Origin: an uncultured Chloroflexia bacterium
GTDB lineage: Bacteria > Chloroflexota > Limnocylindria > Limnocylindrales > CSP1-4
DNA length: 64,000 bases
Assembly: GCA_963800795.1 (NCBI GenBank)
Contig: CAWDCJ010000013.1
Coordinates: forward strand, 6,916 to 70,915
Direction of reading: 5' to 3'
Shown: positions 6,093 to 50,454 of the stretch, piece after piece
Numbering within the stretch: position 1 is the stretch's first letter
How the letters are laid out: every line of letters begins with the position of its first letter
Made by a program: the position numbers and the translations under genes
The notes under the pieces: model-generated
What the model was told of the DNA's origin: nothing
Database searches by the model: none
What the model saw: the letters and a program-made list of their open reading frames with translations, nothing else

Positions 6093-7928
6093 GTGCCCAT
6101 CGACCCCAACCAGGAATTCCTCGTCCAGCCGGTAGATGCGTCCTGGCTCCAGTGCAACATCGAGTGCCAGGAGGCCTGCCCTGTCGGCACGAATTGCCGC
6201 GGCTACCTGAACCTGGCCGCGGAGGGTCGGTTCGAGGAGGGCTATCTCCTTTCGCGCGAACCGAACCCCGTCGCCGCAATGTGCGCCTACGTCTGCTCCG
6301 CGCCATGCGAGCGGGCGTGCCGCCGCGGTGATATCGACCGGCCGCTCGCCATCCGGGCGATGAAGCGGTTCCTGGTCGAATGGCACGAGGCGTCCGGCAT
6401 CCCCGACGTCCTCCCGCCGATCACGCCGCGTGAAGAGCGCGTCGCGGTGGTGGGGGCCGGGCCGGCAGGCATCGCGGTTGCCCGTGAGCTCGCCGTCAAG
6501 GGGTACCGCGTCACCGTCTTCGACAGCCTCCCGTTCGCCGGCGGCACGATGCTGATCGGCGTGCCTGCCTTCCGGCTGCCTCGCGAGGCGATCGAGATGG
6601 ACGTACGGCTCGTGGAGCGGTTGGGCGTCACCTTCCGGTACAACACGAAGATCGGGCCGGATATCAGCTTCGAGACGCTCCTTCGCGACTTCGATTGCGT
6701 CGCGATCTGCGCCGGAGCGATGGACGCGGTGGGGCTCGACATTCCCGGGGCGGAGCTTGCCGGCGTGCAGTACGGCGTCGACTTCATGAAGAAGGCGAAC
6801 CTGGGCGAGCCGCTGGAAGTGGGTCGCAACGTGGTCGTGGTCGGCGGCGGCTACACGGCGATGGACTGTTCGCGGACCAGCCTGCGCCACGGTGCCGAGA
6901 ACGTCACGATCGCCTATCGCCGGACGCGCTCGGAGCTCGTCGTGGACGAGGAGGAGCTGGGCGAGACAGAGCGGGAGGGCGTCAGGATGGAGTTCCTGGT
7001 CAGCCCGATCGAGCTGGTCGGCGAGGATGGGAAGCTGACCGGCGTCCGCTTCATCCGCAACAAGCTCGGCGAGCCCGACGCCTCCGGCCGCCGTTCGCCG
7101 GTGCCCATTCCCGGCTCCGAGTTCGTCGTCCCAGCCGACACGGTCATCCCGGCCGTGTCCCAGGCCGCGGACCTCAGCTTCCTGCCCGTGGAGGCGACCT
7201 TCGAGGTGGCCCGGGGTCGCCTCAAGGTGGATCCGGCGACCTACGCCACGAACGTGCGCGGCGTCTTCGCCGCAGGCGACTTCGTGACCGGGCCGGCGAC
7301 CCTGATCGAGGCCGCCGGGCACGGCAAGAAATGCGCCTACGCGATCGATCGCTACCTGAGCGGGCGGGTCGACGTGACGGTGGCCGCCAACGTCAAGATC
7401 ACGTCGTCCTGGCGCCACGACATGCCGGAGTACTACGACGTGCTGCCGCGCCAGCACATCCCGATGCTGCCGGTCGAGGCGCGCATGGCATCCCGTGAGC
7501 CGGAGGTCAACTTCACCACCGGCGTGGAGCTGGGCTTCAGCGCAACGCACGCGGTTGCCGAGTCCACCCGTTGCTTGATGTGCAACTACAACATCTGGTT
7601 CGACCCGTTCCGGTGCGTCCTGTGCGGCGCCTGCGCCGACGTCTGCCCGGAGGGCGTCATCCACATGATCGACGTGAACCAGATGAAGTCCGAGGGGTTC
7701 CTGCCCGAGCTCGAGGAGGCTTACGGCTGGGACCAGGGCGCCGCCATGATCCTCGACGAGGAGCGCTGCATCCGCTGCGCTCTCTGCGTGAAGCGGTGTC
7801 CGTTCGACGCCATTACGATGGAGCGGTTCGAGCTCCAGGAGATCTCGACCGACGGTCGGCTCTACAAGGAGTCCTACCGGGACGCGCAGCTTGCCGGGAC
7901 GCCCGGCGTCGCAGGAGGGGCCAGGTGA
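6093..7928 (+). CDS. GltD-like NAD(P)H-dependent FAD/Fe-S oxidoreductase with C-terminal 2x[4Fe-4S] ferredoxin domain
   Basis: N-terminal Cys clusters (CNIECQEACPVGTNC, CAYVCSAPCERAC). Two Rossmann motifs (VAVVGAGPAGIA, VVVVGGGYTAMD) and VFAAGD. C-terminal CVLCGACADVCP and CIRCALCVKRCP. Stop overlaps the cytochrome b6 GTG start (GTGA). Confidence 0.85.
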   Translation: MPIDPNQEFLVQPVDASWLQCNIECQEACPVGTNCRGYLNLAAEGRFEEGYLLSREPNPVAAMCAYVCSAPCERACRRGDIDRPLAIRAMKRFLVEWHEASGIPDVLPPITPREERVAVVGAGPAGIAVARELAVKGYRVTVFDSLPFAGGTMLIGVPAFRLPREAIEMDVRLVERLGVTFRYNTKIGPDISFETLLRDFDCVAICAGAMDAVGLDIPGAELAGVQYGVDFMKKANLGEPLEVGRNVVVVGGGYTAMDCSRTSLRHGAENVTIAYRRTRSELVVDEEELGETEREGVRMEFLVSPIELVGEDGKLTGVRFIRNKLGEPDASGRRSPVPIPGSEFVVPADTVIPAVSQAADLSFLPVEATFEVARGRLKVDPATYATNVRGVFAAGDFVTGPATLIEAAGHGKKCAYAIDRYLSGRVDVTVAANVKITSSWRHDMPEYYDVLPRQHIPMLPVEARMASREPEVNFTTGVELGFSATHAVAESTRCLMCNYNIWFDPFRCVLCGACADVCPEGVIHMIDVNQMKSEGFLPELEEAYGWDQGAAMILDEERCIRCALCVKRCPFDAITMERFELQEISTDGRLYKESYRDAQLAGTPGVAGGAR

Positions 7929-8653
7929 GCTTCCTGGAGCGGGTGGATCAGACGATCCGGCGGAGCCCCGTCTTCCGGTCCATCTTCCGCAACCCGTACC
8001 CCAACGACGAGCGGTCGCGGGCGTACGCGGTGATGAACAACGTCTTCCTCCACCTGCACCCGGTCCGCGTGCGCCAGCATGCCGTGAAGTTCGCCTACAC
8101 CTTCTGCCTGGGCGGGCTCTCGTTCTTCCTGTTCCTGGTGCTCACGGTGACCGGCGTCTACCTGATGTTCTTCTACGCCCCGTCCGCCACCCAGGCGTAT
8201 TCGGACATCCTGCAGATCCAGTCCCAGGTGCCGTTCGGGCTGCTGACCCGCAACATCCACCGCTGGGCAGCCCACCTGATGGTGTTCTTCGTCTTCCTGC
8301 ACATGATGCGGGTCTTCTACCACGGCGCCTACAAGCCGCCCCGCGAGTTCAACTGGGTGGTGGGGGTCGTCCTGCTCTTCCTGACCCTTTTCCTGAGCTT
8401 CACCGGCTACCTGCTGCCGTGGGACCAGATCGCCTATTGGGCCATCACGATCGGCTCCAACATGGCCGGCTACGCGCCGCTCTTCAACACGCCCTCGAAG
8501 ACGCTGCTGCTGGCGGGACTGGAGGTGAGCGGCAACACCCTGCTCCGCTTCTACGTCCTCCACATCATGGTCTTCCCGTTAGTGGCGGCGGTCTTCCTGG
8601 CGGTGCACTTCTGGCGCATCCGCAAGGACGGCGGGATCTCGGGGCCGCTATGA
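7925..8653 (+). CDS. petB: cytochrome b6-like (N-terminal half of cytochrome b)
   Basis: From GTG 7925: VSFLERVD..NVFLHLHP..RNIHRWAAHLMVFFVFLHMMRVFYHGAYKPPRE..LLPWDQIAYWA. Four TM helices with the heme-ligand His pairs. Confidence 0.9.
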   Translation: MSFLERVDQTIRRSPVFRSIFRNPYPNDERSRAYAVMNNVFLHLHPVRVRQHAVKFAYTFCLGGLSFFLFLVLTVTGVYLMFFYAPSATQAYSDILQIQSQVPFGLLTRNIHRWAAHLMVFFVFLHMMRVFYHGAYKPPREFNWVVGVVLLFLTLFLSFTGYLLPWDQIAYWAITIGSNMAGYAPLFNTPSKTLLLAGLEVSGNTLLRFYVLHIMVFPLVAAVFLAVHFWRIRKDGGISGPL

Positions 8654-8721: not shown

Positions 8722-8831
8722 TCGGCGCCGCCTTGGTCTGATCCCGTCCTCGCCGCCCCGAGGATGACTCGCTCGGTCGCGGCCCGCCGGTCGGCGCCGC
8801 CTTGGTCTGATCCTGTCCTCGCCGCCCCGAG
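8722..8831. repeat. 41-nt direct repeat, two copies (8722-8762 and 8791-8831), 1 mismatch
   Basis: TCGGCGCCGCCTTGGTCTGATCC(C/T)GTCCTCGCCGCCCCGAG occurs twice, 69 nt apart, in the 187-nt gap between the cytochrome b6 and subunit IV genes. Confidence 0.9.
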
Positions 8832-8840
8832 AGCCGTCGC

Positions 8841-9437
8841 ATGACGGAGCAGAAGGCACCGCCGGAGCGCCGCGTCGTGCTGCCGGTCGATCCCGCCCGC
8901 CGGACGGAGATCGACAAGCAACGGGTGCCGATGTCGGCCCGGCCGTATCGCCTGCTCGCGCTCGTGAAGCAGGACGCCGTGGTGCGCGTCCAGAAGGAAC
9001 CCGACGACACGGTCATGACCTGGCCGCACCTGCTCTCGATCGAGTTCCTGGCCGCCGTCTTCATGAGCATCTTCCTGCTGTTCATGGGCCTGTTCGTGAA
9101 CGCCCCGCTCGAGGAGCTCGCCAACGGGAACGTCACGCCTGAGGTGGCAAAGGCGCCCTGGTACTTCCTGGGGCTCCAGGAGCTCCTGGCCTACTTCCAC
9201 CCGACCGTCGCCGGCGCGCTCGTCCCGATCTTCGTGCTGGTCGGCGCGGCGCTGATCCCGTTCGTCGACCGCGAGAATGTCCGCGCCAACCGGCCCTCGG
9301 ACCGCAAGACCGCGGTCGTGCTCTTCTCGCTCTTCTGCGGTCTTGGGCTCGTCCTGACGTTCCTGGGTATCTTCTTCCGTGGCCCCGGCTACGCGTTCAC
9401 GCTGCCCTGGGTCAGCGGCTTCCACTTCAGTCTGTGA
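8841..9437 (+). CDS. petD: cytochrome b6f subunit IV-like (C-terminal part of cytochrome b)
   Basis: The ..VAKAPWYFLGLQELL.. motif (PEWY-type Qo site element) and three TM helices. Confidence 0.85.
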   Translation: MTEQKAPPERRVVLPVDPARRTEIDKQRVPMSARPYRLLALVKQDAVVRVQKEPDDTVMTWPHLLSIEFLAAVFMSIFLLFMGLFVNAPLEELANGNVTPEVAKAPWYFLGLQELLAYFHPTVAGALVPIFVLVGAALIPFVDRENVRANRPSDRKTAVVLFSLFCGLGLVLTFLGIFFRGPGYAFTLPWVSGFHFSL

Positions 9438-9444
9438 GCGTCCC

Positions 9445-10114
9445 ATGAGCAACTATCAGGTCGAACCCGCCAGCAAGCCCGGAGCCCTCACCAGCGAGGC
9501 GCTCAAGTCGATGCGCAACGAGGCGCCGAAGGGACTCTCGCGCCGGCAGCTCCTCCGAACGTCGCTCGGTGCGGGCGTGGGCCTCTGGCTCCTCGAAGTC
9601 TCCGCAGGCACCCTGGGGTTCCTGTGGCCCAACCTGTCGGGCGGATTCGGCGGCAAGGTCCCGCTGGGCTCGTTCACGGACGTCAAGAACGCGAACGCGC
9701 TGATCCCGTTCGGCGATGGGTACCCGGCCTACTACCAGGACGCGCGGTCGTTCATCGTGCTCGTGGACACCACTCGCCAGGAGTTCGTCCCGGGCGACGA
9801 TCCGACCGGCGACGGGACCGCCCTCAACGTGCGTGCCCTCTACCAGCGCTGCACGCACCTGGGCTGCAAGCCCAACTTCTGCGTCAAGAGCTACTGGTTC
9901 GAGTGCCCCTGCCACGGATCCCGCTACGATCGGTTGGGAACCAAGGTCAAGGAGCTCGGCCCGGCGCCGCGCTCGCTGGACCGGTTCGCGGTGAGCGTCG
10001 GCGGGCGACGGGAAGCTCACCCTCGACACGAGCAAGCTGACGCTCGGTCCGCTGCCCATAGCGCTGGGCCAGCCGGGTCTCATCCCATCGATGAGCCCGA
10101 CCGGCTGCATCTGA
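9445..10114 (+). CDS. petC: Rieske 2Fe-2S protein (1-nt frame break near 10003-10008)
   Basis: Twin-arginine signal SRRQLLRTSLGAG; CTHLGC and CPCHGS cluster boxes. A +1 slip after ..FAVSVGG reads the typical tail DGKLTLDTSKLTLGPLPIALGQPGLIPSMSPTGCI* (stop 10112-10114). Confidence 0.85.
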
Positions 10115-10142: not shown

Positions 10143-11295
10143 ATGACCGAGCAGCCGGGCCAGCGCCCGGACGAGCGCCTGCCCGTCCCGCGTGAGCCGG
10201 ACCCGGTCGTCCCGCCGGAGCCGGGTGCGGTCGTCCCGCGCGAGCCCGCGGAGGTGGATCGGTTCACCGCGCACCCGAGCGCGCACACGGCCGGGCTGAC
10301 GCCCGAACGCGCCGCGAAGATCGTCAGCCAGAGCGCCAGCGCGCGCTGGGTCGCCTTCCTGGCCGTCACGATCGTCTCCCTGTTCGTGATCGTCTACTAC
10401 TTCTACGACCTCGGCGTCCCCGGCGTCGCGAACTCCAGCCGCTTTGGCCAACGAGGTCGCCGCCCAGCAGGTCACGGCCGTGACGCAGGGGTACGCGCTG
10501 TTCGAGGCGAACTGCGCGCGCTGCCACGGCGCCCAGGGCCAGGGCGGGATCGGGCCGACCCTCAACGACCAGGCCAAGCTGCTGACCCACCTCACGCCGG
10601 GCTACCTGCAGAGCGTCCTCACGGTGGGTGGCCGCTACGTGTGCGGTGACCCGAACTCGCTGATGCCGATCTGGTCGGACCAGGGCAACCCGCCCGGGCC
10701 GTTGAACTACCGGAACCTCCAGGAGCTGATCGCGTTCATCACGGCCCCGTCCACCCTGCAGTTCCAGGGCGTCGACCCGACCACCGGCCAGACCGTCACC
10801 ATGTCCGGCTGGCGCGACCCGAGCTACGTCCTCCCGGCGGGCGCCACCCCGGTTCCAGCGTGCTGGAAGGACGCGTTCACCTCGGCCTCTTCGCCCGCGG
10901 CCAGCGCGGCCCCCAGCGCCGGGGCCAGCGGGGCGCCGAGCGCGGCCCCAGCGAGCGCGGCGCCCTCCGGCAGCCCGGCCGGCTCGCCCGGCCGCATCCG
11001 GCGGCGCCGCGGAGACGGTCCTCCAGCTGGCGGCGGCGAACATCGCCTACGACCAGACCGACCTGACCGCCCCGGCGGGGGTCCCGTTCCAGATCGCGTT
11101 CACCAACAACGACGCGGGGATCCCCCACAACGTCTCGATCCACCAGGGCTCGCCGACCGGCACGGAGGTCTTCAAGGGCACGATCTTCACGGGCGTGGCC
11201 ACCCAGACCTACGACGTGCCGGCGCTCCCCGCCGGGACGTACAGCTTCGTCTGCTCGGTCCACCCGAACATGGCGGCACGCTCACGGTCAAGTAG
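10143..11295 (+). CDS. membrane-anchored monoheme cytochrome c fused to an amicyanin-like cupredoxin domain (frame breaks near 10441, ~10990, ~11272)
   Basis: TM helix WVAFLAVTIVSLFVIVYYF. Heme box CARCH with SLMPIW. Ala/Pro/Ser linker. Then FQIAFTNNDAGIPHNVSIH..YSFVCSVHPNMAGTLTVK* (His, Cys-x2-His-x2-Met copper ligands). Confidence 0.8.
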
Positions 11296-11347: not shown

Positions 11348-12848
11348 ATGACGGAACAGGCGCTCGGTCCAGGCGGCACGGTGGTGCGCAGGCGGGCCTT
11401 CTTCGGGCTGCTCGACGCGAACGGCTGGGGCTGGGCGGGCGTCAAGGCGACCGTCTGGTTCGTTCTCATCATCATGCTGATGGCCTACCTGCCGGACCGC
11501 GCGCTCTATGCGACCGTGCAGAACACGATCGACCTCGGCGTCGCGCTCAAGGTCTTCAACCCGGCCCTCGATGTCACCCCGATCAACTTCTGCCCTGCGT
11601 CCAACGAGACCGTGCCCTGCCCCGCTCCGGCCGGGACGGTCCTGCCCTGGGAGCCCAGCCCGGTCCAGCTGGCGCTGCCGCAGGCGCGCACCGACGCGGC
11701 GATCGTGGGAGCCGGCCTCGAGACGCTGCTGGTCGGCGGCACCGATCCGACCGGGACACCGCAGGCCAGCGTCTTCGCCACCGTCATCCGGCCGGACGGC
11801 AACATCGATGCATGGAGCCAGGGCGCCCCGCTGCCGGCTCCGCGCGCCCAGGCGGCGGCGGTCTTCTTCTCGGGCACCGCGTATGTCATCGGCGGCCTCG
11901 GCGCGGACGGCCAGCCGACCGACACCGTCTTCGCCGGCACCCCGGATGTCGCGACCGGCAAGATCACGACCTGGACCGAGTCGACGGACCTGAAGCTGCC
12001 GGCTCCGCGTGCCGGCGCCTCGGTCGCCGTCGCGAGTGACGGCATCTTCCTCGTGGGTGGCACCGACGGCAAGGGTCCCGTGGACACGGTGTGGAAGTCG
12101 GCGCTGAACGCGACGACCGGCAAGCTCCAGGCATGGGCGCCCAACGCGCCGCTCACTTCGTTCGACGCCTCCGGGGCTGCCCAACCGGCGCCGCGTGTGC
12201 ACGTCGGTGGCGACGGTCCTCGGCCAGGAGCTGTTCGTGTGGGGCGGCGAGGATGCGGCGGGGCCCACGCGGACCGTGCTCCGCGGTGACATCTCGACGG
12301 ACAAGGCGACGCTGGGCCAGGTGACCCGATGGGGAACCTCGAGCACCGCCGCCCAGAACCTGCCGGCAGCCCACAAGGGCGCCTTCGGCTGGGTAGCCAA
12401 CTCGAACCTGTACTACGCCGGGGGCGCGGGCTCCAACGGCGAGATCGTGTGGGCGATCCCGGACGCGAACGGCAACATCCCGGGCTGGGTGCATCTCGCC
12501 GCGAGCGACCTGCCGTCGACGCTCGACCTGCAGGACGCTGCGCCGATCGTCTCCGGCTCGCATGTCTTCCTCGTCGGCGGGACCACGTCGTCCGGCGCGA
12601 CGACCGGGACGGCGCGCGCGAACCTCTCCCCGGCGCTCCCGTTCTTCCAGCTCGGCCTCTTCTACATCGTGGTTCCCGCGATGGGCATCCAGGGTCCGGT
12701 CGGCCAGCAGCTCTCGTACCTCGCGGCCGCCGGCGTGGCCACCGGCGACTTCGTGCTCCTGCTGCTGCTGGGGTACGCGTTCAACCACAAGGAGCGCACG
12801 CGCGCGTTCCTCCACCACCTGCGCAACCGGCGGCAGCGAACCGCCTGA
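11348..12848 (+). CDS. Kelch-repeat beta-propeller membrane protein (frame break near 12185)
   Basis: N-terminal TM (VWFVLIIMLMAYL). Repeated blade motifs LLVGGTD, AYVIGGLG, IFLVGGTDG, LFVWGGED, LYYAGGAG, VFLVGGTT. C-terminal TM pair. Merges track ORFs 11195..12289 and 12195..12848. Confidence 0.7.

Positions 12849-44879: not shown

Positions 44880-44883
<4 letters not shown>
43813..44883 (-). CDS. ABC transporter ATP-binding protein (DrrA/ABC-2 type)
   Basis: GPNGAGKTTT, LSGGEKQRLSLALAL, LLILDEPTAGMD, TTHEL. Start MTAARG (ATG 44881-44883) overlaps the TlpA-like stop. Confidence 0.9.
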
Positions 44884-45440
<557 letters not shown>

Positions 45441-45510: not shown

Positions 45511-45888
45511 CTACTTGACCGTCAGGGTGCCGACCATGTTCGGATGGACGGAGCAGACGAAGGTGTACGTGCCGGCCGGCAGGGCCGGCACGTCATAGGT
45601 CCGGGCCCCGGTCCCGGTGAAGATCTCGCCCTTGAAGACCTCCGTGCCGGTGGCCGAGCCCGCATGGATCGAGACGTTGTGGGGGATCCCCGCGTCGTTG
45701 TTCGTGAAGTCGATCTGGAAGGGCGTGTTGGCGGGCGCCGAGAGGTCGGTCTTGTCGTAGGCGATCCCGCTCGCGGTGAGCTGGAGCGCGACCGCGGCGC
45801 CGGGCGCTGCGCTCGCCGCCGGCGATCCGGCCGCCGGCGCCGGATCCGGCCGCCGCGCTTGCCGCGGGTGCCGCGGACGGGGAGGGCG
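45511..45888. repeat. copy 1 of a ~380-bp duplicated block (cupredoxin module + linker)
   Basis: 45511-45839 matches 49247-49575 base for base except one position (45595 A vs 49331 G). A further ~50 nt are similar, with a 7-nt indel. Confidence 0.9.
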
Positions 45889-46737
45889 CCGTACCGGCGC
45901 CGGCCGCCGCGGCCGGGCCCGGGGACGCTGCCACGCTCGCTGCGGGTTCCCTCGGCGGCACGATCCCTTCCGCGACGAGCACGCTCAGGACGAGGATCGC
46001 GCCGAACAGGAGCAGCGTCCCGGTGGGGAAGCGCGGGGCGGGAATGTTCTCGAGATGGCCCGTGGCGTCCGCCCGCACCGTCTCGCGGTACTCGGCCCGC
46101 GCGTCGCGCAGCCAGCCCAGGAGGGCAACCACGAGCATCACCACGCCGCCGCTGAGGATCGCGACGTTGAGGACCCCGCCGACGACCATCACGGATGCCG
46201 CCAAGGCCAGGATGAACGGCCGGAAGCTCGGCCCCGGCATGTGCACCCCGGCGGGCGGTCCCGGGTGCACGACCGCGGGCAGGGCGGTCGGCGCCTCGAG
46301 CGCGTCGTATTCGCGACTGGCCTCGCGCCCCCAGTACGAGCAGGCCGGACAGGAGCGCCAGGAGGCCGATCGCGATCGCGAGGAGGCCGGGCGGCTGGAT
46401 CGTCCACGACGTGGAGTCCGCGATCGGCTGCTTGGTCGCCGGATCCACCTGCGGGACCGACGTGGACGAAGAGGATCGCGAGGAAGAAGCAGGCGAAACC
46501 CGCCGCCGCCAGGAACGGGGCGAGGCTGGGCCCCGGCATATGGATGTGCGCCGGCGTGGGCGTCGCGGGCAGCGGCCGCGTCCGCGTTGGTGGCGCGGTG
46601 AGCGCCCGCCGCATGATCCAGCCGAGGTAGGCCACGACGAGCGCCGCGACCGCGAGCGGGATCAGCGCAACCAGCGCACCCCAGTCCGGCGAGACCAGCT
46701 GGTTGAGCAGGGCGAGGAGCGAATTCCAGGGCGACAT
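45511..46737 (-). CDS. membrane protein with two tandem CoxIII-N-terminal-like 2-TM modules fused to an amicyanin-like cupredoxin (three frame breaks)
   Basis: HIHMPGPSLAPFLAAAGFACFFLAILF and GVHMPGPSFRPFILALAASVMVVGGVL resemble the H-x-H-M-x-x-P-S-x-x-P start of canonical oxidase subunit III. An Ala/Pro/Ser linker follows. C-terminus FQIDFTNNDAGIPHNVSIH..YTFVCSVHPNMVGTLTVK* (stop 45511-45513). Confidence 0.65.
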
Positions 46738-46761: not shown

Positions 46762-46944
46762 CTACTCGGTCTCGTCGCCGCGCGGTGAGGCGGTCATCAG
46801 GACGAAGGCCAGCATCCCCATCGAGAGGCCCAGGGCCAGCAGGAGCGTCACGCCGATCCATTCGTGGCTGACCAGCCCGTAGGAGACGCCGAGCCCGATG
46901 AAGATCAGACCGATGAGCATCGCTCGGCGCGGCCGCATGATCAT
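46762..46944 (-). CDS. small 2-TM oxidase-cluster protein (subunit IV-like)
   Basis: MIMRPRRAMLIGLIFIGLGVSYGLVSHEWIGVTLLLALGLSMGMLAFVLMTASPRGDETE. Call rests on position between ctaE and the CoxIII-N-like gene. Confidence 0.5.
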   Translation of the reverse strand: MIMRPRRAMLIGLIFIGLGVSYGLVSHEWIGVTLLLALGLSMGMLAFVLMTASPRGDETE

Positions 46945-46963: not shown

Positions 46964-47600
46964 TCAGAGCAGGTAGAGCGTCGAGAAGAGTGCGATCCAG
47001 ACGACGTCCACGAAGTGCCAGTAGATGGAGGTCGCCTCCACCGCGTCGTGGTGCTTGGCCGAGAACTGCCCGGACATCCCGCGGTAGAGCACGACGCTGA
47101 GCATGATCGCACCGCCCAGGACGTGCGCGCCGTGGAAGCCCGTCAGCGTGTAGAACGTGCTGCCGAACGCCGTGTCGGTGATCCCGAACCCGAGCTGCGT
47201 GTAGTCGTAGATCTGGCCGATCAGGAAGATCAGCCCGAGGACCAGGGTGATCCCGGTGTTGCGAAGGAAGCCCGTCCGATCGCCGCGCCGGATGGACCAC
47301 ACTCCCAGCTGCATTGTCACCGAGGAGAGCACGAGGACCATCGTCAGGGTCGCCGGAAGCAGGATCTCGTGGTGGATCTGGAAGGGCTCGAACGGCGCCT
47401 CGTTCACGAGGGGCGGCCACTGCGTCGCGTTCAGGCGAACGTTGAAGTAGGCGGCGAAGAGGCCCGCGAAGAACATCACCTCGGAGGTGATGAACAGGAT
47501 CATCCCCAGGATCGGGTTGCTGATTCCCCGCTGGCCGTGCGCCCGGCTCTCGCCCGGGACACCGGCGCGTGCGTGCCAGGGCCGTGCTGCTCGTCGTCAT
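46964..47600 (-). CDS. ctaE: cytochrome c oxidase subunit III, 5-helix form (frame break near 47585)
   Basis: LGMILFITSEVMFFAGLF, TLTGFHGAHVLGG, YWHFVDVVWI. ATG at 47598-47600 lies in another frame, 2 nt after the ctaD stop. Confidence 0.85.
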
Positions 47601-47602
47601 GC

Positions 47603-49237
47603 TCAGTGCCCCGCCGGAAGCGCCGGCACGTCGTTGGCGTGGCGGAGGTCGAAGACCGGTCGCTCGGAACGGATCGGCGGGAGGTGGTCGAAGTTGTACG
47701 GCGGTGGCGGGGACGAGGTCGCCCACTCCAGGGTGTTCCCCTCCCACGGGTCGTCGCCGGCGGGCTCGCCGGAGCGCAGCGTGATGAAGACGTTCCACAG
47801 GAACGGCAGCATCGCGACCGCGATCGTGAAGCCCCCGATCGTGGCAAGCAGGTTCAGATCGTTCCAGCCGGCGGTGGCGCTGTAGTCGGCGATACGGCGC
47901 GGCATCCCGGACAGGCCCAGCAGGTGCATCGGGAAGAAGGTCAGGTTCATCCCGATGAAGATCCCGACGAAGTGGATCTTGCCCAGGGTCTCGTTCAGCT
48001 TCCGGCCGAACATCTTCGGCCACCAGTAGTAGAGCCCCGCGAAGACGCCCATGATCGAGCCGCCGAACAGCACGTAGTGGATGTGGGCGACGATGAAATA
48101 GGTCGCGTGGACGTGGTAGTCGACCGGCACGGCGGCCAGGACCGCGCCGTTGATCCCGCCGATCAGGAACAGCGAGAGGAAGCCAACCGCGAAGAGCATC
48201 GCGGACGTGAAGCGGAGCTTGCCCCGGAACATCGTGGCGACCCAGTTGAACATCTTCACGCCGGTCGGCACCGCGATCAGGAACGTCATCAGGCTGAAGA
48301 ACGGCAGGTAGACGGTCCCCGTCGTGAACATGTGGTGGGCCCAGACCGAGAAGCCGAGCGCGCCGATCCCCGCGGTCGCGAAGATGAACGCCTTGTAGCC
48401 AAAGAGCGGCTTCCGACTGAAGGTCGGCAGCACCTCGGAGACGATCCCCATGGCGGGCAGGATCATGATGTAGACGGCCGGGTGGCTATAGAACCAGAAG
48501 ACGTTCTGCCACAGGATCGCGTTGCCGCCCAGCGCGGTGTTGAAGAAGCTTCCGCCGAGATTCCGGTCGATGTAGAGCATGATCAGGGCGCTCGTCAGGA
48601 CCGGGGTTCCCATCAGCACGAGCACGCTCGTGACGAGCATCGTCCAGACGAAGATCGGCATCCGGAAGAGGGTCATCCCCGGCGCCCGCATCTTGAAGAT
48701 CGTCACCAGGAAGTTGATGGCGCCCAGGATGGAGCTGGTGCCGACCAGCGTGAGCGCGACGATCCAAAGGTCCGTCCCAGGCCCCTTGGAGAACGCCGAT
48801 TCAGCCAGCGGGCTGTAGCTGGTCCAGCCCTCCGCGGCCGCGCCGCCGAGCGGGAAGCCCAGCAGGGCGATCAGCGCCGAGAGCGGCAGCAGCCAGAACG
48901 ACAGGGCGTTGATGCGTGGGAACGCCATGTCCGGCGCGCCGATCATCAGCGGGACGAGGTAGTTACCGAAGCCCGCCAGGAACGGGATGACCACCCAGAA
49001 GATCATCACCGAGGCGTGCATGGTGAACATCTGGTTGTAGGTGGCCTCGCTCATGAACTGGAGCCCGGGCTGGGCCAGCTCGGTGCGAACCGCCAGCGCG
49101 AAGAGTCCACCGACCAGGAACAGGATCAGCGAGTTGAACGTGTAGAGGATCCCGATCTTCTTGTGATCGGTCGTGGTGAGCCATTCGTAGAGCCCGGTCC
49201 GGTAGGTGGCCGCGGGGCGCAGCACGGTGGTGGCCAT
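47603..49237 (-). CDS. ctaD: cytochrome c oxidase subunit I (aa3 type)
   Basis: TTDHKKIGILY, MAFPRINALSFW, WTSYSPL, FWFYSHPAVYIMILP, WAHHMFTTG, HFHYVL-type IVAHIHYVL. Confidence 0.95.
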   Translation of the reverse strand: MATTVLRPAATYRTGLYEWLTTTDHKKIGILYTFNSLILFLVGGLFALAVRTELAQPGLQFMSEATYNQMFTMHASVMIFWVVIPFLAGFGNYLVPLMIGAPDMAFPRINALSFWLLPLSALIALLGFPLGGAAAEGWTSYSPLAESAFSKGPGTDLWIVALTLVGTSSILGAINFLVTIFKMRAPGMTLFRMPIFVWTMLVTSVLVLMGTPVLTSALIMLYIDRNLGGSFFNTALGGNAILWQNVFWFYSHPAVYIMILPAMGIVSEVLPTFSRKPLFGYKAFIFATAGIGALGFSVWAHHMFTTGTVYLPFFSLMTFLIAVPTGVKMFNWVATMFRGKLRFTSAMLFAVGFLSLFLIGGINGAVLAAVPVDYHVHATYFIVAHIHYVLFGGSIMGVFAGLYYWWPKMFGRKLNETLGKIHFVGIFIGMNLTFFPMHLLGLSGMPRRIADYSATAGWNDLNLLATIGGFTIAVAMLPFLWNVFITLRSGEPAGDDPWEGNTLEWATSSPPPPYNFDHLPPIRSERPVFDLRHANDVPALPAGH

Positions 49238-49246
49238 CAGGGTCTC

Positions 49247-49631
49247 CTACTTGACCGTCAGGGTGCCGACCATGTTCGGATGGACGGAGCAGACGAAGGT
49301 GTACGTGCCGGCCGGCAGGGCCGGCACGTCGTAGGTCCGGGCCCCGGTCCCGGTGAAGATCTCGCCCTTGAAGACCTCCGTGCCGGTGGCCGAGCCCGCA
49401 TGGATCGAGACGTTGTGGGGGATCCCCGCGTCGTTGTTCGTGAAGTCGATCTGGAAGGGCGTGTTGGCGGGCGCCGAGAGGTCGGTCTTGTCGTAGGCGA
49501 TCCCGCTCGCGGTGAGCTGGAGCGCGACCGCGGCGCCGGGCGCTGCGCTCGCCGCCGGCGATCCGGCCGCCGGCGACGGCCGCCCGATCCGGCCGCCGCG
49601 CTCGCCGCGGGTGCCGCGGACGGGGAGGGCG
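49247..49631. repeat. copy 2 of the ~380-bp duplicated block
   Basis: See copy 1 (45511-45888). Confidence 0.9.
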
Positions 49632-50454
49632 GCGGTGCGAGCTGTTGCTGGAGCCAGGCGTCGTAGTCGGCCTTCGATTCGACCTGCACCTGGAACTCCA
49701 TGAACTCGTGGTAGAGGCCGCAGAACTGGGTGCACTGGCCGCGGTAGGTCCCGATCCGATCCGCGGTGAACTGGATCACCTGGTCCTTGCCGGGCGTGAT
49801 GTCGCGCTGGTACAGGAAGGCCGGGACGTAGAACGAGTGGATCACGTCCATGGAATGCAGCTGGAGCTCCACCGTCTCGTTCACCGGGACGTGCATGATC
49901 GGCGGCGACCAGCCCGTGCGGTCACCTCCCGACGGGAGCGTTCCGAAGACGGTCACGCACTTGCCCTGGTTCGCTTGCGCGTTGCAGTCCTGCCACGCCA
50001 CGCCGTCAGGTGCGTAGACGAACTGCCACTGCCACTGGTAGGCGACCACCCCGATGCGGATCGGAGGCGTGGGCGTATGTGCGTCGACCGTGTTGAGCGT
50101 CTGCCATGAGAGCGCGAACAGGGCCAGCACGATCGCAATGGGGATGGCGGTCCAGACGATCTCCAGCCGGTTGTTGCCGTGGATCTGCGGCGGCAGCTCA
50201 TCGTCGCCGTCCCGCCGGCGATAGCGCAGGACCGCGAACAGGATCAGGCCTTCCACCAGCACGAAGATCGCGACACCGATCGCGAAGATGACGAGGTAGA
50301 GGTTTCGCGTGGCTTCGCCCTGGACCGAGGCCGCTTCCGGCGGGAGGGCCGTCCGCAGGTTGAAGTCCGAGCAGGCGGAGACGAGGAGCGCGATGGCACC
50401 GAGCGCCGCGAGCGTCCCGACGCGGCGGACCCATCGCTTCGCTGTCTGACCCAT
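49247..50454 (-). CDS. ctaC: cytochrome c oxidase subunit II (CuA) fused to a C-terminal amicyanin-like cupredoxin (frame break near 49576-49595)
   Basis: Lipobox-like LLVSAC, two TM helices, DVIHSFYVP, CuA loop CTQFCGLYHEFM. Then an Ala/Pro/Ser linker and the cupredoxin ..IPHNVSIH..FVCSVHPNMVGTLTVK*. Confidence 0.85.

What the first reader, a model, noticed from the sequence alone, without database searches (positions are those of the whole stretch)
10143..11295. Cytochrome c of the bc complex is fused to an amicyanin-like blue-copper domain
A single reading (after three frame corrections) gives a TM anchor, a monoheme cytochrome c (CARCH), an Ala/Pro/Ser linker and a cupredoxin with His..Cys-x2-His-x2-Met ligands (IPHNVSIH, FVCSVHPNM). 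Oxidase subunit II (49247-50454) and a third membrane protein (45511-46737) end in closely related cupredoxin domains. Together these suggest tethered copper domains, not a soluble cytochrome c, carry electrons from the bc complex to the aa3 oxidase.
Basis: partly seen in the sequence, partly recalled or inferred. Interest (0 to 1): 0.7.

Follow-up and report, generated by a model that had tools for sequence, protein, structure and literature searches.

The report
Cytochrome c fused to blue-copper domain
A whole class of soil and freshwater bacteria (Limnocylindria, Chloroflexota) builds the cytochrome c subunit of its respiratory bc complex with a blue-copper domain on a flexible leash, and puts near-identical copper domains on two subunits of its oxygen-reducing oxidase, so the two enzymes are probably linked by tethered copper carriers rather than a free cytochrome c.

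Summary
Window 10143-11295 encodes one 383-aa protein. It consists of a cytoplasmic tail, a TM anchor, a monoheme class I cytochrome c, an Ala/Ser/Pro/Gly linker and a type-1 copper cupredoxin. The three frame breaks are single-base indels at short base runs. More than 100 intact orthologues 55-95% identical to the window protein exist, and at least 356 GTDB species carry a relative. Heme ligands (CxxCH, Met) and copper ligands (His, Cys-x2-His-x2-Met) are invariant. The gene always sits in a six-gene module: GltD-like FeS flavoprotein, cyt b6, subunit IV, Rieske, cyt c-cupredoxin, Kelch membrane protein. The aa3 oxidase operon carries the same cupredoxin on CoxII (most lineages, not all) and on a CtaF-like subunit IV. 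Cupredoxin copies within one genome are often 96-100% identical, against about 70-76% between genomes, which indicates concerted evolution. The best explanation is a leash-mounted copper carrier that passes electrons from heme c to the oxidase in a monoderm cell. This is inferred, not demonstrated. Absence of other carriers elsewhere in the genome could not be tested. I found no description of it in the searchable literature. It is a new variant of a known kind, namely carriers tethered between complexes III and IV.

The parts
10143..11295 (+). Gene for the membrane-anchored cytochrome c-cupredoxin fusion (383 aa after correcting three 1-nt indels at ~10446, ~10987, 11275)
10347..10406 (+). 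N-terminal transmembrane anchor WVAFLAVTIVSLFVIVYYFY (N-in/C-out by charge distribution; helix 54-90 in the AF2 model of P0009)
10444..10884 (+). Class I monoheme cytochrome c domain. Heme motif CARCH is at 10513-10527. The presumed axial Met lies in NSLMPIW at 10654-10674. Invariant Cys167 and Cys240 may form a disulfide.
10885..11017 (+). Ala/Ser/Pro/Gly-rich flexible linker (median 33 aa in orthologues; pLDDT below 50)
11018..11292 (+). Type-1 copper cupredoxin domain. The His ligand is in IPHNVSIH (11120-11143). The Cys-x2-His-x2-Met loop CSVHPNM is at 11252-11272.
9445..10114 (+). Rieske iron-sulfur protein (1-nt insertion at ~10002). The CPCHGSRY signature S-Y predicts a high potential.
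8841..9437 (+). Subunit IV (C-terminal half of cytochrome b), Qo motif APWY
7925..8653 (+). Cytochrome b6-type subunit. It has a Cys in FCLGG at the position I recall as the heme ci ligand of b6f complexes. Its start overlaps the stop of the upstream flavoprotein gene.
6093..7928 (+). GltD/DPD-like FeS flavoprotein (Fer4_20 + Pyr_redox_2 + 2x[4Fe-4S] ferredoxin domain), the first gene of the conserved module
11348..12848 (+). Kelch beta-propeller membrane protein (frameshifted in the window), the last gene of the conserved module
49247..50454 (-). aa3 oxidase subunit II (CuA motif CTQFCGLYHEFM at 49699-49734) with a C-terminal linker and cupredoxin; one frameshift
47603..49237 (-). Oxidase subunit I
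46964..47503 (-). Oxidase subunit III. The listed ORF is 179 aa, whereas orthologues are 214 aa, so the true start is probably nearer 47600.
46762..46944 (-). Conserved 60-aa two-helix membrane protein between coxIII and the subunit IV-cupredoxin gene
45511..46737 (-).
45511..45810 (-). 300-nt cupredoxin cassette about 100% identical to 49247-49546 (one mismatch in the alignment), read as a gene-conversion tract
44880..45440 (-). TlpA-like thioredoxin (AhpC-TSA/Redoxin in the syntenic orthologues), a probable CuA/heme maturation factor

Best explanation
The gene encodes the cytochrome c subunit of a b6-type Rieske/cytochrome b complex of Limnocylindria (Chloroflexota). An N-terminal helix holds it in the membrane. 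On the outer face it carries one heme c domain, which takes electrons from the high-potential Rieske cluster. A type-1 copper cupredoxin is joined to it by a disordered leash of about 30-50 residues. The cupredoxin acts as a built-in mobile carrier: it takes the electron from heme c and delivers it to the aa3 oxidase. Delivery goes either directly to CuA or through the near-identical cupredoxins leashed to CoxII and to the CtaF-like subunit IV. Shown: the fusion, the ligands, the fold, the disordered linker, the operon contexts, class-wide conservation, and homogenisation of the three copper modules. Inferred: direction and partners of electron transfer, copper and heme occupancy, and physical association of the complexes.
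For: More than 100 intact orthologues carry both domains, and at least 356 GTDB species hold a relative. CxxCH, Met174, His328, Cys370, His373 and Met376 are invariant in 20- and 71-sequence alignments. Among the full-length hits (>=330 aa), the only two without copper ligands are one frameshifted call (P0030) and one degenerate sequence (P0034). The AF2 model shows a TM helix, a cytochrome c domain (pLDDT about 90), a linker (pLDDT below 50) and a cupredoxin (pLDDT about 97). The best fold matches are the electron carriers auracyanin and amicyanin. Sequence matches are to plastocyanin and amicyanin. The gene follows Rieske by 28 nt and is the only c-type cytochrome in a six-gene module conserved in all 80 loci examined. 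The Rieske signature S-Y (77 of 79 loci) predicts a potential above 260 mV, compatible with a type-1 copper acceptor. The oxidase operon carries the same domain on CoxII and on a PF12270 subunit. Within genomes the domains are often 96-100% identical across host proteins, against 69-76% between genomes. For 26 of 41 domains the nearest relative is in the same genome on another host protein, so they behave as one interchangeable carrier species. A divergent lineage keeps the same operon but has two cupredoxins with a different ligand loop (Cys-x4-His-x4-Met) behind the same cytochrome c. Selection is therefore for a tethered copper domain as such. Chloroflexota are monoderm (established knowledge), so carriers must be anchored.
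Against: There is no biochemical, proteomic or expression evidence. The genome outside the window was not searched, so other carriers may exist. CoxII lacks the cupredoxin in some lineages, so that element is dispensable. The conserved FeS flavoprotein and the uncharacterised APWY Qo motif mean that the direction and energetics of the complex are uncertain. No complex modelling of cupredoxin with CuA or heme c was possible.
Confidence: 0.68

Rival explanations
1. The tethered cupredoxins are a branch point, or an entry point, rather than a dedicated wire from the bc complex to aa3. They could hand electrons to other copper or heme enzymes such as nitrite or nitrous-oxide reductases. Alternatively they could accept electrons from extracytoplasmic dehydrogenases and feed them backwards through the complex to quinone or NAD(P) via the FeS flavoprotein.
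For: A GltD-like NAD(P)-type flavoprotein is translationally coupled to cyt b6 and is 83-94% conserved. Cytochrome b with the APWY Qo motif has not been characterised, and a reversed Q cycle was proposed for one member of that clade. Anammox Rieske/cyt b complexes with such subunits are proposed to make NAD(P)H. Chloroflexi often fuse cytochrome c and cupredoxin domains to Nir enzymes. Amicyanin-type proteins classically accept electrons from a dehydrogenase.
Against: Identical cupredoxins sit on two subunits of the aa3 oxidase itself and are homogenised with the copy on cytochrome c. No Nir, Nos or dehydrogenase gene lies in the conserved neighbourhoods. Limnocylindria are described as aerobic heterotrophs in the papers read.
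Confidence: 0.17
2. The cupredoxin domains are copper-delivery or assembly modules for CuA/CuB (PCuAC/Sco-like), not redox carriers.
For: They sit in an operon with CtaG and a TlpA-like thioredoxin. Foldseek also matches uncharacterised Cupredoxin_1 copper- or zinc-binding proteins.
Against: The full His-Cys-His-Met type-1 ligand set with an amicyanin-type loop is invariant. The best structural and sequence matches are electron carriers. A copper chaperone has no reason to be fused to the cytochrome c of the bc operon in every species.
Confidence: 0.07
3. The fused reading is an artefact. In this view the window carries a decayed pseudogene, or two genes joined by the reader's frame corrections.
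For: Three frame changes are needed in 1.15 kb. P0030, a 99%-identical gene call from another contig, is also frameshifted.
Against: Intact orthologues at 93-95% identity read straight through. The indels are single bases at short base runs and also hit neighbouring essential genes. Sequence after each shift stays fully conserved, including all ligands.
Confidence: 0.03

Closest known systems
Actinobacterial bcc-aa3 supercomplex (diheme QcrC; CtaC, CtaF)
   Same: It is a monoderm respiratory chain without a free cytochrome c. The cytochrome subunit of complex III has two redox domains in series, and the outer one feeds CuA. The oxidase here is closest to the actinobacterial type: NF050117 aa3_CtaC_Actin scores 218 bits and the PF12270 CtaF-like subunit is present. 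The cytochrome c domain weakly matches QcrC.
   Different: The second redox domain is a type-1 copper cupredoxin on a disordered leash, not a second heme c. The anchor is N-terminal. Cytochrome b is split (b6 plus subunit IV) with an APWY motif. Extra cupredoxins sit on CoxII and subunit IV. All NCBIfam actinobacterial models score below their cut-offs.
caa3-type oxidases and membrane-anchored cytochromes c of Firmicutes/Thermus (CoxII-cyt c fusion; B. subtilis CccA c550; QcrC)
   Same: A carrier domain is fused to the C-terminus of CoxII. The monoheme cytochrome c has an N-terminal TM anchor, and NF045773 cytochrome c550 is the best NCBIfam hit (6e-8).
   Different: The domain fused to CoxII is a cupredoxin, not heme c; CoxII has no CxxCH. 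The cytochrome c carries an additional copper domain.
Archaeal copper carriers: halocyanin fused to oxidase subunit IIa in haloarchaea, and sulfocyanin SoxE in the Sulfolobus SoxM supercomplex
   Same: A blue-copper protein anchored in the membrane, or fused to a small oxidase subunit, mediates transfer from Rieske/cyt b to the oxidase (PMC3128077; PMC4122944).
   Different: Those systems have no c-type cytochrome. Here heme c and copper lie in one polypeptide, and the organism is a bacterium.
Auracyanins of Chloroflexia (with Alternative Complex III)
   Same: They come from the same phylum, are membrane-tethered type-1 copper carriers, and are the best Foldseek matches (6kol, 2aan, 1qhq).
   Different: Auracyanins are separate proteins that serve ACIII. 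From my recollection their ligand loop is Cys-x4-His-x4-Met, whereas here it is Cys-x2-His-x2-Met (amicyanin-like). The divergent relative P0367 does have the longer loop.
Three-domain copper nitrite reductases with tethered cytochrome c or cupredoxin
   Same: A heme c and a type-1 copper centre are linked in one chain for intramolecular electron transfer.
   Different: Those are catalytic enzymes. Here both domains are pure carriers attached to a quinol oxidoreductase.
Rieske/cyt b complexes with a cytoplasmic oxidoreductase subunit (anammox R/b-2 and R/b-3)
   Same: An FeS flavoprotein gene lies in the bc operon next to cyt b (PMC5600118, PMC12954380).
   Different: The high-potential side differs: multiheme cytochromes there, heme c plus copper here. 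The host here is an aerobic heterotroph.

Membership tests
Type-1 (blue) copper cupredoxin electron carriers | Greek-key beta-sandwich cupredoxin fold | tested here: met
   In the AF2 model, residues 280-371 have pLDDT about 97. Foldseek matches auracyanin and amicyanin with E 1e-8 to 1e-7 and TM(target) about 0.65. Pfam PF13473 and PF00127 score above their cut-offs.
Type-1 (blue) copper cupredoxin electron carriers | His ... Cys-xn-His-xn-Met ligand set | tested here: met
   H328, C370, H373 and M376 are invariant. 109 of 116 sequences have C-x2-H-x2-M, and 5 more have C-x2-H-x3-M.
Type-1 (blue) copper cupredoxin electron carriers | Binds copper, with 600-nm absorption and small A-parallel EPR | not testable with these tools
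   Needs purified protein.
Amicyanin (TIGR02657 equivalog) | Score above the curated cut-off, and partnership with methylamine dehydrogenase | tested here: not met
   It scores 28-31 bits against a cut-off of 110.2. No mau genes occur in the conserved neighbourhoods. Only the ligand-loop spacing is amicyanin-like.
Class I c-type cytochrome | CxxCH heme attachment motif and a distal Met, on the outer face of the membrane | tested here: met
   C124, C127, H128 and M174 are invariant. PF13442 and PF00034 score above their cut-offs. The TM anchor with positive charges on its N-terminal side places the domain outside. This topology is an inference.
Cytochrome subunit of a Rieske/cyt b complex (functional analogue of c1 / f / QcrC) | Encoded with Rieske and cytochrome b, and the only c-type cytochrome of the operon | tested here: met
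   Synteny holds in 80 of 80 loci. There is a single credible CxxCH in the window.
Cytochrome subunit of a Rieske/cyt b complex (functional analogue of c1 / f / QcrC) | Homology to cytochrome c1, cytochrome f or diheme QcrC | tested here: not met
   There is no c1 or f hit. NF050122 bc1_QcrC_actin scores 26.7 bits against a cut-off of 200.
Cytochrome subunit of a Rieske/cyt b complex (functional analogue of c1 / f / QcrC) | Co-purifies with Rieske/cyt b and is reduced by quinol | not testable with these tools
   Needs membranes or complexome data.
caa3-type oxidase subunit II | CuA domain followed by a fused heme c domain | tested here: not met
   The CuA motif is present in 98 of 98 sequences. 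The fused domain is a cupredoxin, with no CxxCH. It is therefore an analogue, not a member.
Actinobacterial-type oxidase subunit IV (CtaF, PF12270) | Match to PF12270 in a protein encoded in the cox operon | tested here: met
   61 of 62 family members match at E <= 0.01, with best E 9e-12. The two individually reported members score below the 26.9-bit cut-off: the window copy at 21.2 bits and P0241 at 19.2 bits. How many members pass the cut-off was not reported. The gene sits after coxIII in L083, L084 and the window.

The most novel reading that the evidence does not exclude
Limnocylindria run a respiratory chain of a previously undescribed design. A b6-type Rieske/cyt b complex carries a cytoplasmic NAD(P)-linked FeS flavoprotein on one face. 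On the other face it carries a heme c-copper hybrid subunit. It is coupled to an actinobacterial-type aa3 oxidase through a relay of two or three leash-mounted cupredoxins, which gene conversion keeps nearly identical. This would be a self-exchanging copper 'bucket brigade' that replaces both soluble cytochrome c and the rigid diheme bridge of actinobacterial supercomplexes.
Probability: 0.35. Interest if true: 0.72.

Novelty: new variant of a known kind. Interest (0 to 1): 0.58.

Why it matters
Limnocylindria are abundant in soils and lakes and have no well-studied cultured model. This module is probably their main aerobic energy-conserving pathway. It offers a natural, single-chain heme c to type-1 copper pair for studying intramolecular and leash-limited electron transfer. 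It extends to bacteria a principle known from archaea, in which copper proteins replace cytochrome c between complexes III and IV. It also shows how monoderm cells solve the lack of a periplasm in a third way, beside fused cytochromes c and rigid supercomplexes. The concerted evolution of the three copper modules gives a genetic signature of functional interchangeability that can be tested. The attached NAD(P)-type flavoprotein makes the same complex relevant to the open question of what oxidoreductase-bearing Rieske/cyt b complexes do.

Tried and rejected
(1) Pseudogene or artefact: rejected, because intact orthologues exist and the indels are single bases. (2) Assembly collapse as the cause of the identical CoxII and subunit IV cassettes: unlikely. 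There is one mismatch between them, and the flanks differ. The same near-identity recurs in independent assemblies, sometimes between other pairs of host proteins. (3) Single-sequence search of the third protein's membrane part against the PDB found nothing. Foldseek with the whole model returned only cupredoxin matches. Family-wide Pfam scanning was needed to see PF12270. (4) The 38-nt direct repeat in the cyt b6/subunit IV spacer was tested for RNA structure, and it folds no better than shuffles (z = +1.5). (5) Nine literature searches found no description of this fusion, only analogues. Absence from the held library is not proof of absence. (6) The profile search of 1.84 billion representatives was used to look for the architecture outside the family. 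It mostly returned fragments and multi-cupredoxin proteins. Two divergent full-length relatives (P0367, P0376) were informative. The taxonomy of those two could not be established.
Full report
OBSERVATION. An ORF opens at ATG 10143. It continues in a second frame from about 10446 and in a third from about 10990. It returns to the second of these frames for the last seven codons and stops at TAG 11293-11295. The assembled 383-aa protein has five parts:
- a Pro/Glu/Arg-rich N-terminal tail;
- one hydrophobic helix (WVAFLAVTIVSLFVIVYYFY, 10347-10406);
- a cytochrome c domain with CARCH (10513-10527);
- an Ala/Ser/Pro/Gly linker;
- a cupredoxin with IPHNVSIH (11120-11143) and CSVHPNM (11252-11272), ending in GGTLTVK.

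Pfam finds Cupredoxin_1, Copper-bind, Cytochrome_CBB3 and Cytochrom_C, all above their curated cut-offs.

THE FRAMESHIFTS ARE ERRORS, AND THE FUSION IS REAL. A search of 5.8 billion proteins returned more than 100 uninterrupted full-length orthologues (343-392 aa, 55-95% identity, 100% coverage). Nearly all have both cytochrome c and cupredoxin Pfam domains, and those that carry names are from 'Candidatus Limnocylindrales' or Chloroflexota MAGs. I aligned the window with an intact short-read contig of about 94% DNA identity (L085). The three frame changes fall at single-base indels at short base runs: 10446, ~10987 and 11275. Similar indels lie in the adjacent Rieske (10002) and Kelch (12203) genes. 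CoxII and the third protein also need frame corrections. The window therefore comes from an indel-prone assembly. Most related MAGs carry 'MFD' isolate labels and come as very long contigs; I did not check the sequencing platform. Both fail.

CONSERVATION. In alignments of 20 and 71 sequences the following residues are invariant:
- the heme cysteines and histidine (C124, C127, H128);
- the presumed axial Met174 (SLM);
- the four copper ligands (H328, C370, H373, M376);
- two further cysteines, C167 and C240, which may form a disulfide in the cytochrome domain (inference).

Of the 116 hits of at least 330 aa, 109 have Cys-x2-His-x2-Met. Five have a loop one residue longer, one is a frameshifted gene call, and one looks degenerate. 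A scan of one genome per GTDB species found at least 356 species with a relative. The best 80 are all full length (47-86% identity) and include Limnocylindrus and Aquidulcis.

STRUCTURE. An AlphaFold2 model of the 94%-identical orthologue P0009 shows the following:
- a long helix at residues 54-90;
- a helical cytochrome c domain at 100-247 (pLDDT about 90);
- a disordered stretch at 248-276 (pLDDT below 50);
- a beta-sandwich at 280-371 (pLDDT about 97).

Foldseek against the PDB ranks Roseiflexus and Chloroflexus auracyanins and Paracoccus amicyanins first (E 1e-8 to 1e-7). Sequence search ranks plastocyanins and amicyanins first (E about 4e-6). The Cys-x2-His-Pro-x-Met spacing is the amicyanin loop (my own knowledge of amicyanin ligands His53, Cys92, His95, Met98). 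The amicyanin equivalog model scores only 28-31 bits against a cut-off of 110. The domain is therefore amicyanin-like, not an amicyanin. The cytochrome domain is a generic class I cytochrome. Its best NCBIfam hit is the TM-anchored Bacillus cytochrome c550, and it weakly resembles CcoP and actinobacterial QcrC.

CONTEXT 1: THE bc MODULE. In the window and in intact relatives the gene is fifth in a six-gene array:
- a 611-aa GltD/dihydropyrimidine-dehydrogenase-like FeS flavoprotein with an extra 2x[4Fe-4S] domain;
- a 242-aa cytochrome b6 whose start abuts the flavoprotein stop;
- a 198-aa subunit IV;
- a 222-aa Rieske protein;
- the fusion gene;
- a Kelch beta-propeller membrane protein of about 498 aa.

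tblastn shows this order in every one of the 80 species loci, as far as each contig reaches. The flavoprotein (83-94% identity) and cytochrome b6 (85-98%) are much more conserved than the fusion protein (49-73%). Subunit IV has the Qo motif APWY (75 of 76 loci). The Rieske protein has the S-Y signature (77 of 79 loci). Cytochrome b6 keeps a Cys in CLGG, which I recall as the heme ci ligand position of b6f complexes. Kao and Hunte (PMC4122944) place Chloroflexi in an uncharacterised 'APWY clade' whose Rieske proteins are predicted to be mid-to-high potential, and they read S-Y as above 260 mV. The fusion protein is the only c-type cytochrome of the module, and the only credible one in the window. 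It is therefore the obvious acceptor for the Rieske cluster.

CONTEXT 2: THE OXIDASE. About 35 kb away lies the oxidase operon, in this order:
- CtaG (divergent);
- CoxII;
- CoxI;
- CoxIII;
- a 60-aa membrane protein;
- a membrane protein of about 400 aa;
- a TlpA-like thioredoxin.

CoxII (49247-50454, one frameshift) has COX2_TM, COX2 with the CuA motif CTQFCGLYHEFM, a linker and a cupredoxin. About 95 intact orthologues of about 390 aa share this architecture, and the closest NCBIfam model is actinobacterial CtaC. The fusion is not universal. In L084, CoxII is 309 aa and ends 10 nt before coxI, and about a dozen other hits of 290-325 aa carry only the two COX2 Pfam domains.

Its model has five or six helices, a 40-residue disordered linker and a cupredoxin. 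In 61 of 62 members it matches PF12270, the actinobacterial-type oxidase subunit IV (best E 9e-12). The oxidase thus carries one or two leashed cupredoxins of its own.

CONCERTED EVOLUTION. In the window the cupredoxin cassettes of CoxII and subunit IV are identical over 300 nt, apart from one mismatch seen in the alignment. Both are 80% identical in protein to the cytochrome c copy. Domains on different host proteins of one genome are often 96-100% identical, and the pair involved varies: cyt c with subunit IV, CoxII with subunit IV, or all three. The same host's domain averages only 69-76% between genomes. For 26 of 41 domains the nearest relative is in the same genome on another host. I read this as recurrent gene conversion. 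It argues that the modules are functionally one carrier species.

A divergent relative (P0367, 550 aa) sits in the same six-gene operon. It carries two cupredoxins with a Cys-x4-His-x4-Met loop behind a homologous cytochrome c domain. P0376 has one such domain. The copper module has been exchanged while the architecture was kept.

MECHANISM (inference). Quinol is oxidised at the Qo site and one electron goes to the high-potential Rieske cluster. From there it passes to heme c of the anchored subunit, and then to the leashed type-1 copper. Linkers of median 33, 31 and 45 residues could each span several nanometres. The copper domain could therefore reach CuA, or the oxidase-borne cupredoxins, without a rigid supercomplex. 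Chloroflexota are monoderm (established knowledge), so a free carrier would be lost. Firmicutes, Thermus and Actinobacteria solve this with anchored or fused cytochromes c. Haloarchaea and Sulfolobus use anchored copper proteins, including a halocyanin fused to oxidase subunit IIa (PMC3128077; PMC4122944). The Limnocylindria design combines both: heme c and copper in one subunit, and copper on the oxidase. I put about 0.68 on this reading.

RIVALS. There are three:
- a branch-point or reverse-flow role linked to the NAD(P)-type flavoprotein (0.17);
- a copper-chaperone role (0.07);
- an artefact or pseudogene (0.03).

The flavoprotein is a reminder that oxidoreductase-bearing Rieske/cyt b complexes are known but not understood (PMC5600118, PMC12954380).

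NOVELTY. Nine full-text searches found no description of this fusion or of the cupredoxin-bearing CoxII/CtaF. Papers on Limnocylindria that I read do not mention it. Annotation pipelines label the proteins only generically, as 'plastocyanin/cytochrome c553' or 'cupredoxin domain-containing protein'. I rate it a new variant of a known kind: carriers tethered between complexes III and IV.

LIMITS. There is no functional data. There is no genome-wide census of carriers. No multimer modelling was possible. Genome identity for the concerted-evolution test was inferred from shared contig lengths.

Noticed in passing
window 6093-7928 (+), and L001-L082 upstream of cyt b6: A 611-aa GltD-like FeS flavoprotein (Fer4_20 + FAD/NAD(P) domain + 2x[4Fe-4S]) is translationally coupled to cytochrome b6. 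It is 83-94% conserved in all 60 loci that reach it. This makes the complex one of the little-understood Rieske/cyt b complexes with a cytoplasmic oxidoreductase subunit, as in anammox bacteria.
   Followed up: partly
window 45511-45810 vs 49247-49546, and 17 related genomes: The cupredoxin cassettes on different host proteins (cyt c, CoxII, subunit IV) are kept 96-100% identical within many genomes, but are only about 70-76% identical between genomes. I read this as concerted evolution by gene conversion over at least 300 nt.
   Followed up: yes
window 11348-12848 (+): A Kelch beta-propeller membrane protein of about 498 aa always follows the fusion gene (76 of 80 loci). Its role in or near the complex is unknown.
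   Followed up: partly
window 8725-8762 and 8794-8831 (+): Two copies (one mismatch) of a 38-nt motif, GCGCCGCCTTGGTCTGATCCYGTCCTCGCCGCCCCGAG, lie in the cyt b6/subunit IV spacer and nowhere else in the window. The spacer folds no better than shuffled sequence (z = +1.5).
   Followed up: partly
window 7925-8653 and 8841-9437; 80 loci: Cytochrome b6 keeps a Cys in the CLGG motif, which I recall as the heme ci ligand position of b6f. Subunit IV has the uncharacterised Qo motif APWY. The Rieske protein has the high-potential S-Y signature. All three features are conserved across the class.
   Followed up: partly
window 10002, 10446, ~10987, 11275, 12203-12215, and the cox genes: Single-base indels at short base runs break many essential genes, so the assembly is indel-prone. 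Any gene call in this window needs frame correction.
   Followed up: yes
L084 9001-9930 (CoxII P0211) and other ~290-325-aa CoxII hits: Some Limnocylindria lineages have CoxII without the cupredoxin, while keeping it on subunit IV and on cytochrome c. The CoxII fusion is therefore a gain or loss within the class.
   Followed up: partly
P0367 (550 aa, JGI contig 11.4 kb) and P0376 (426 aa): Divergent relatives in the same six-gene operon carry one or two cupredoxins with a Cys-x4-His-x4-Met loop instead of the amicyanin-type loop. The copper module was swapped while the architecture was kept. The taxon is unknown.
   Followed up: partly
P0377, P0379, P0419 (profile-search hits, not in the window): These are membrane-anchored proteins with two or three tandem cupredoxins of the same CxxHPxM type. 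One is from an Actinomycetota MAG. They may be multi-copper tethered carriers in other monoderm lineages.
   Followed up: no
window 10143-10340 (N-terminal tail of the fusion protein): The cytoplasmic tail has a conserved motif (MTDQPG..PE.RLPVPR) that is invariant or nearly so across the family. This suggests a contact on the cytoplasmic side, possibly with the flavoprotein.
   Followed up: no
window 46762-46944 (-): A conserved 60-aa two-helix membrane protein lies between coxIII and the subunit IV-cupredoxin gene. It has no family assignment.
   Followed up: no
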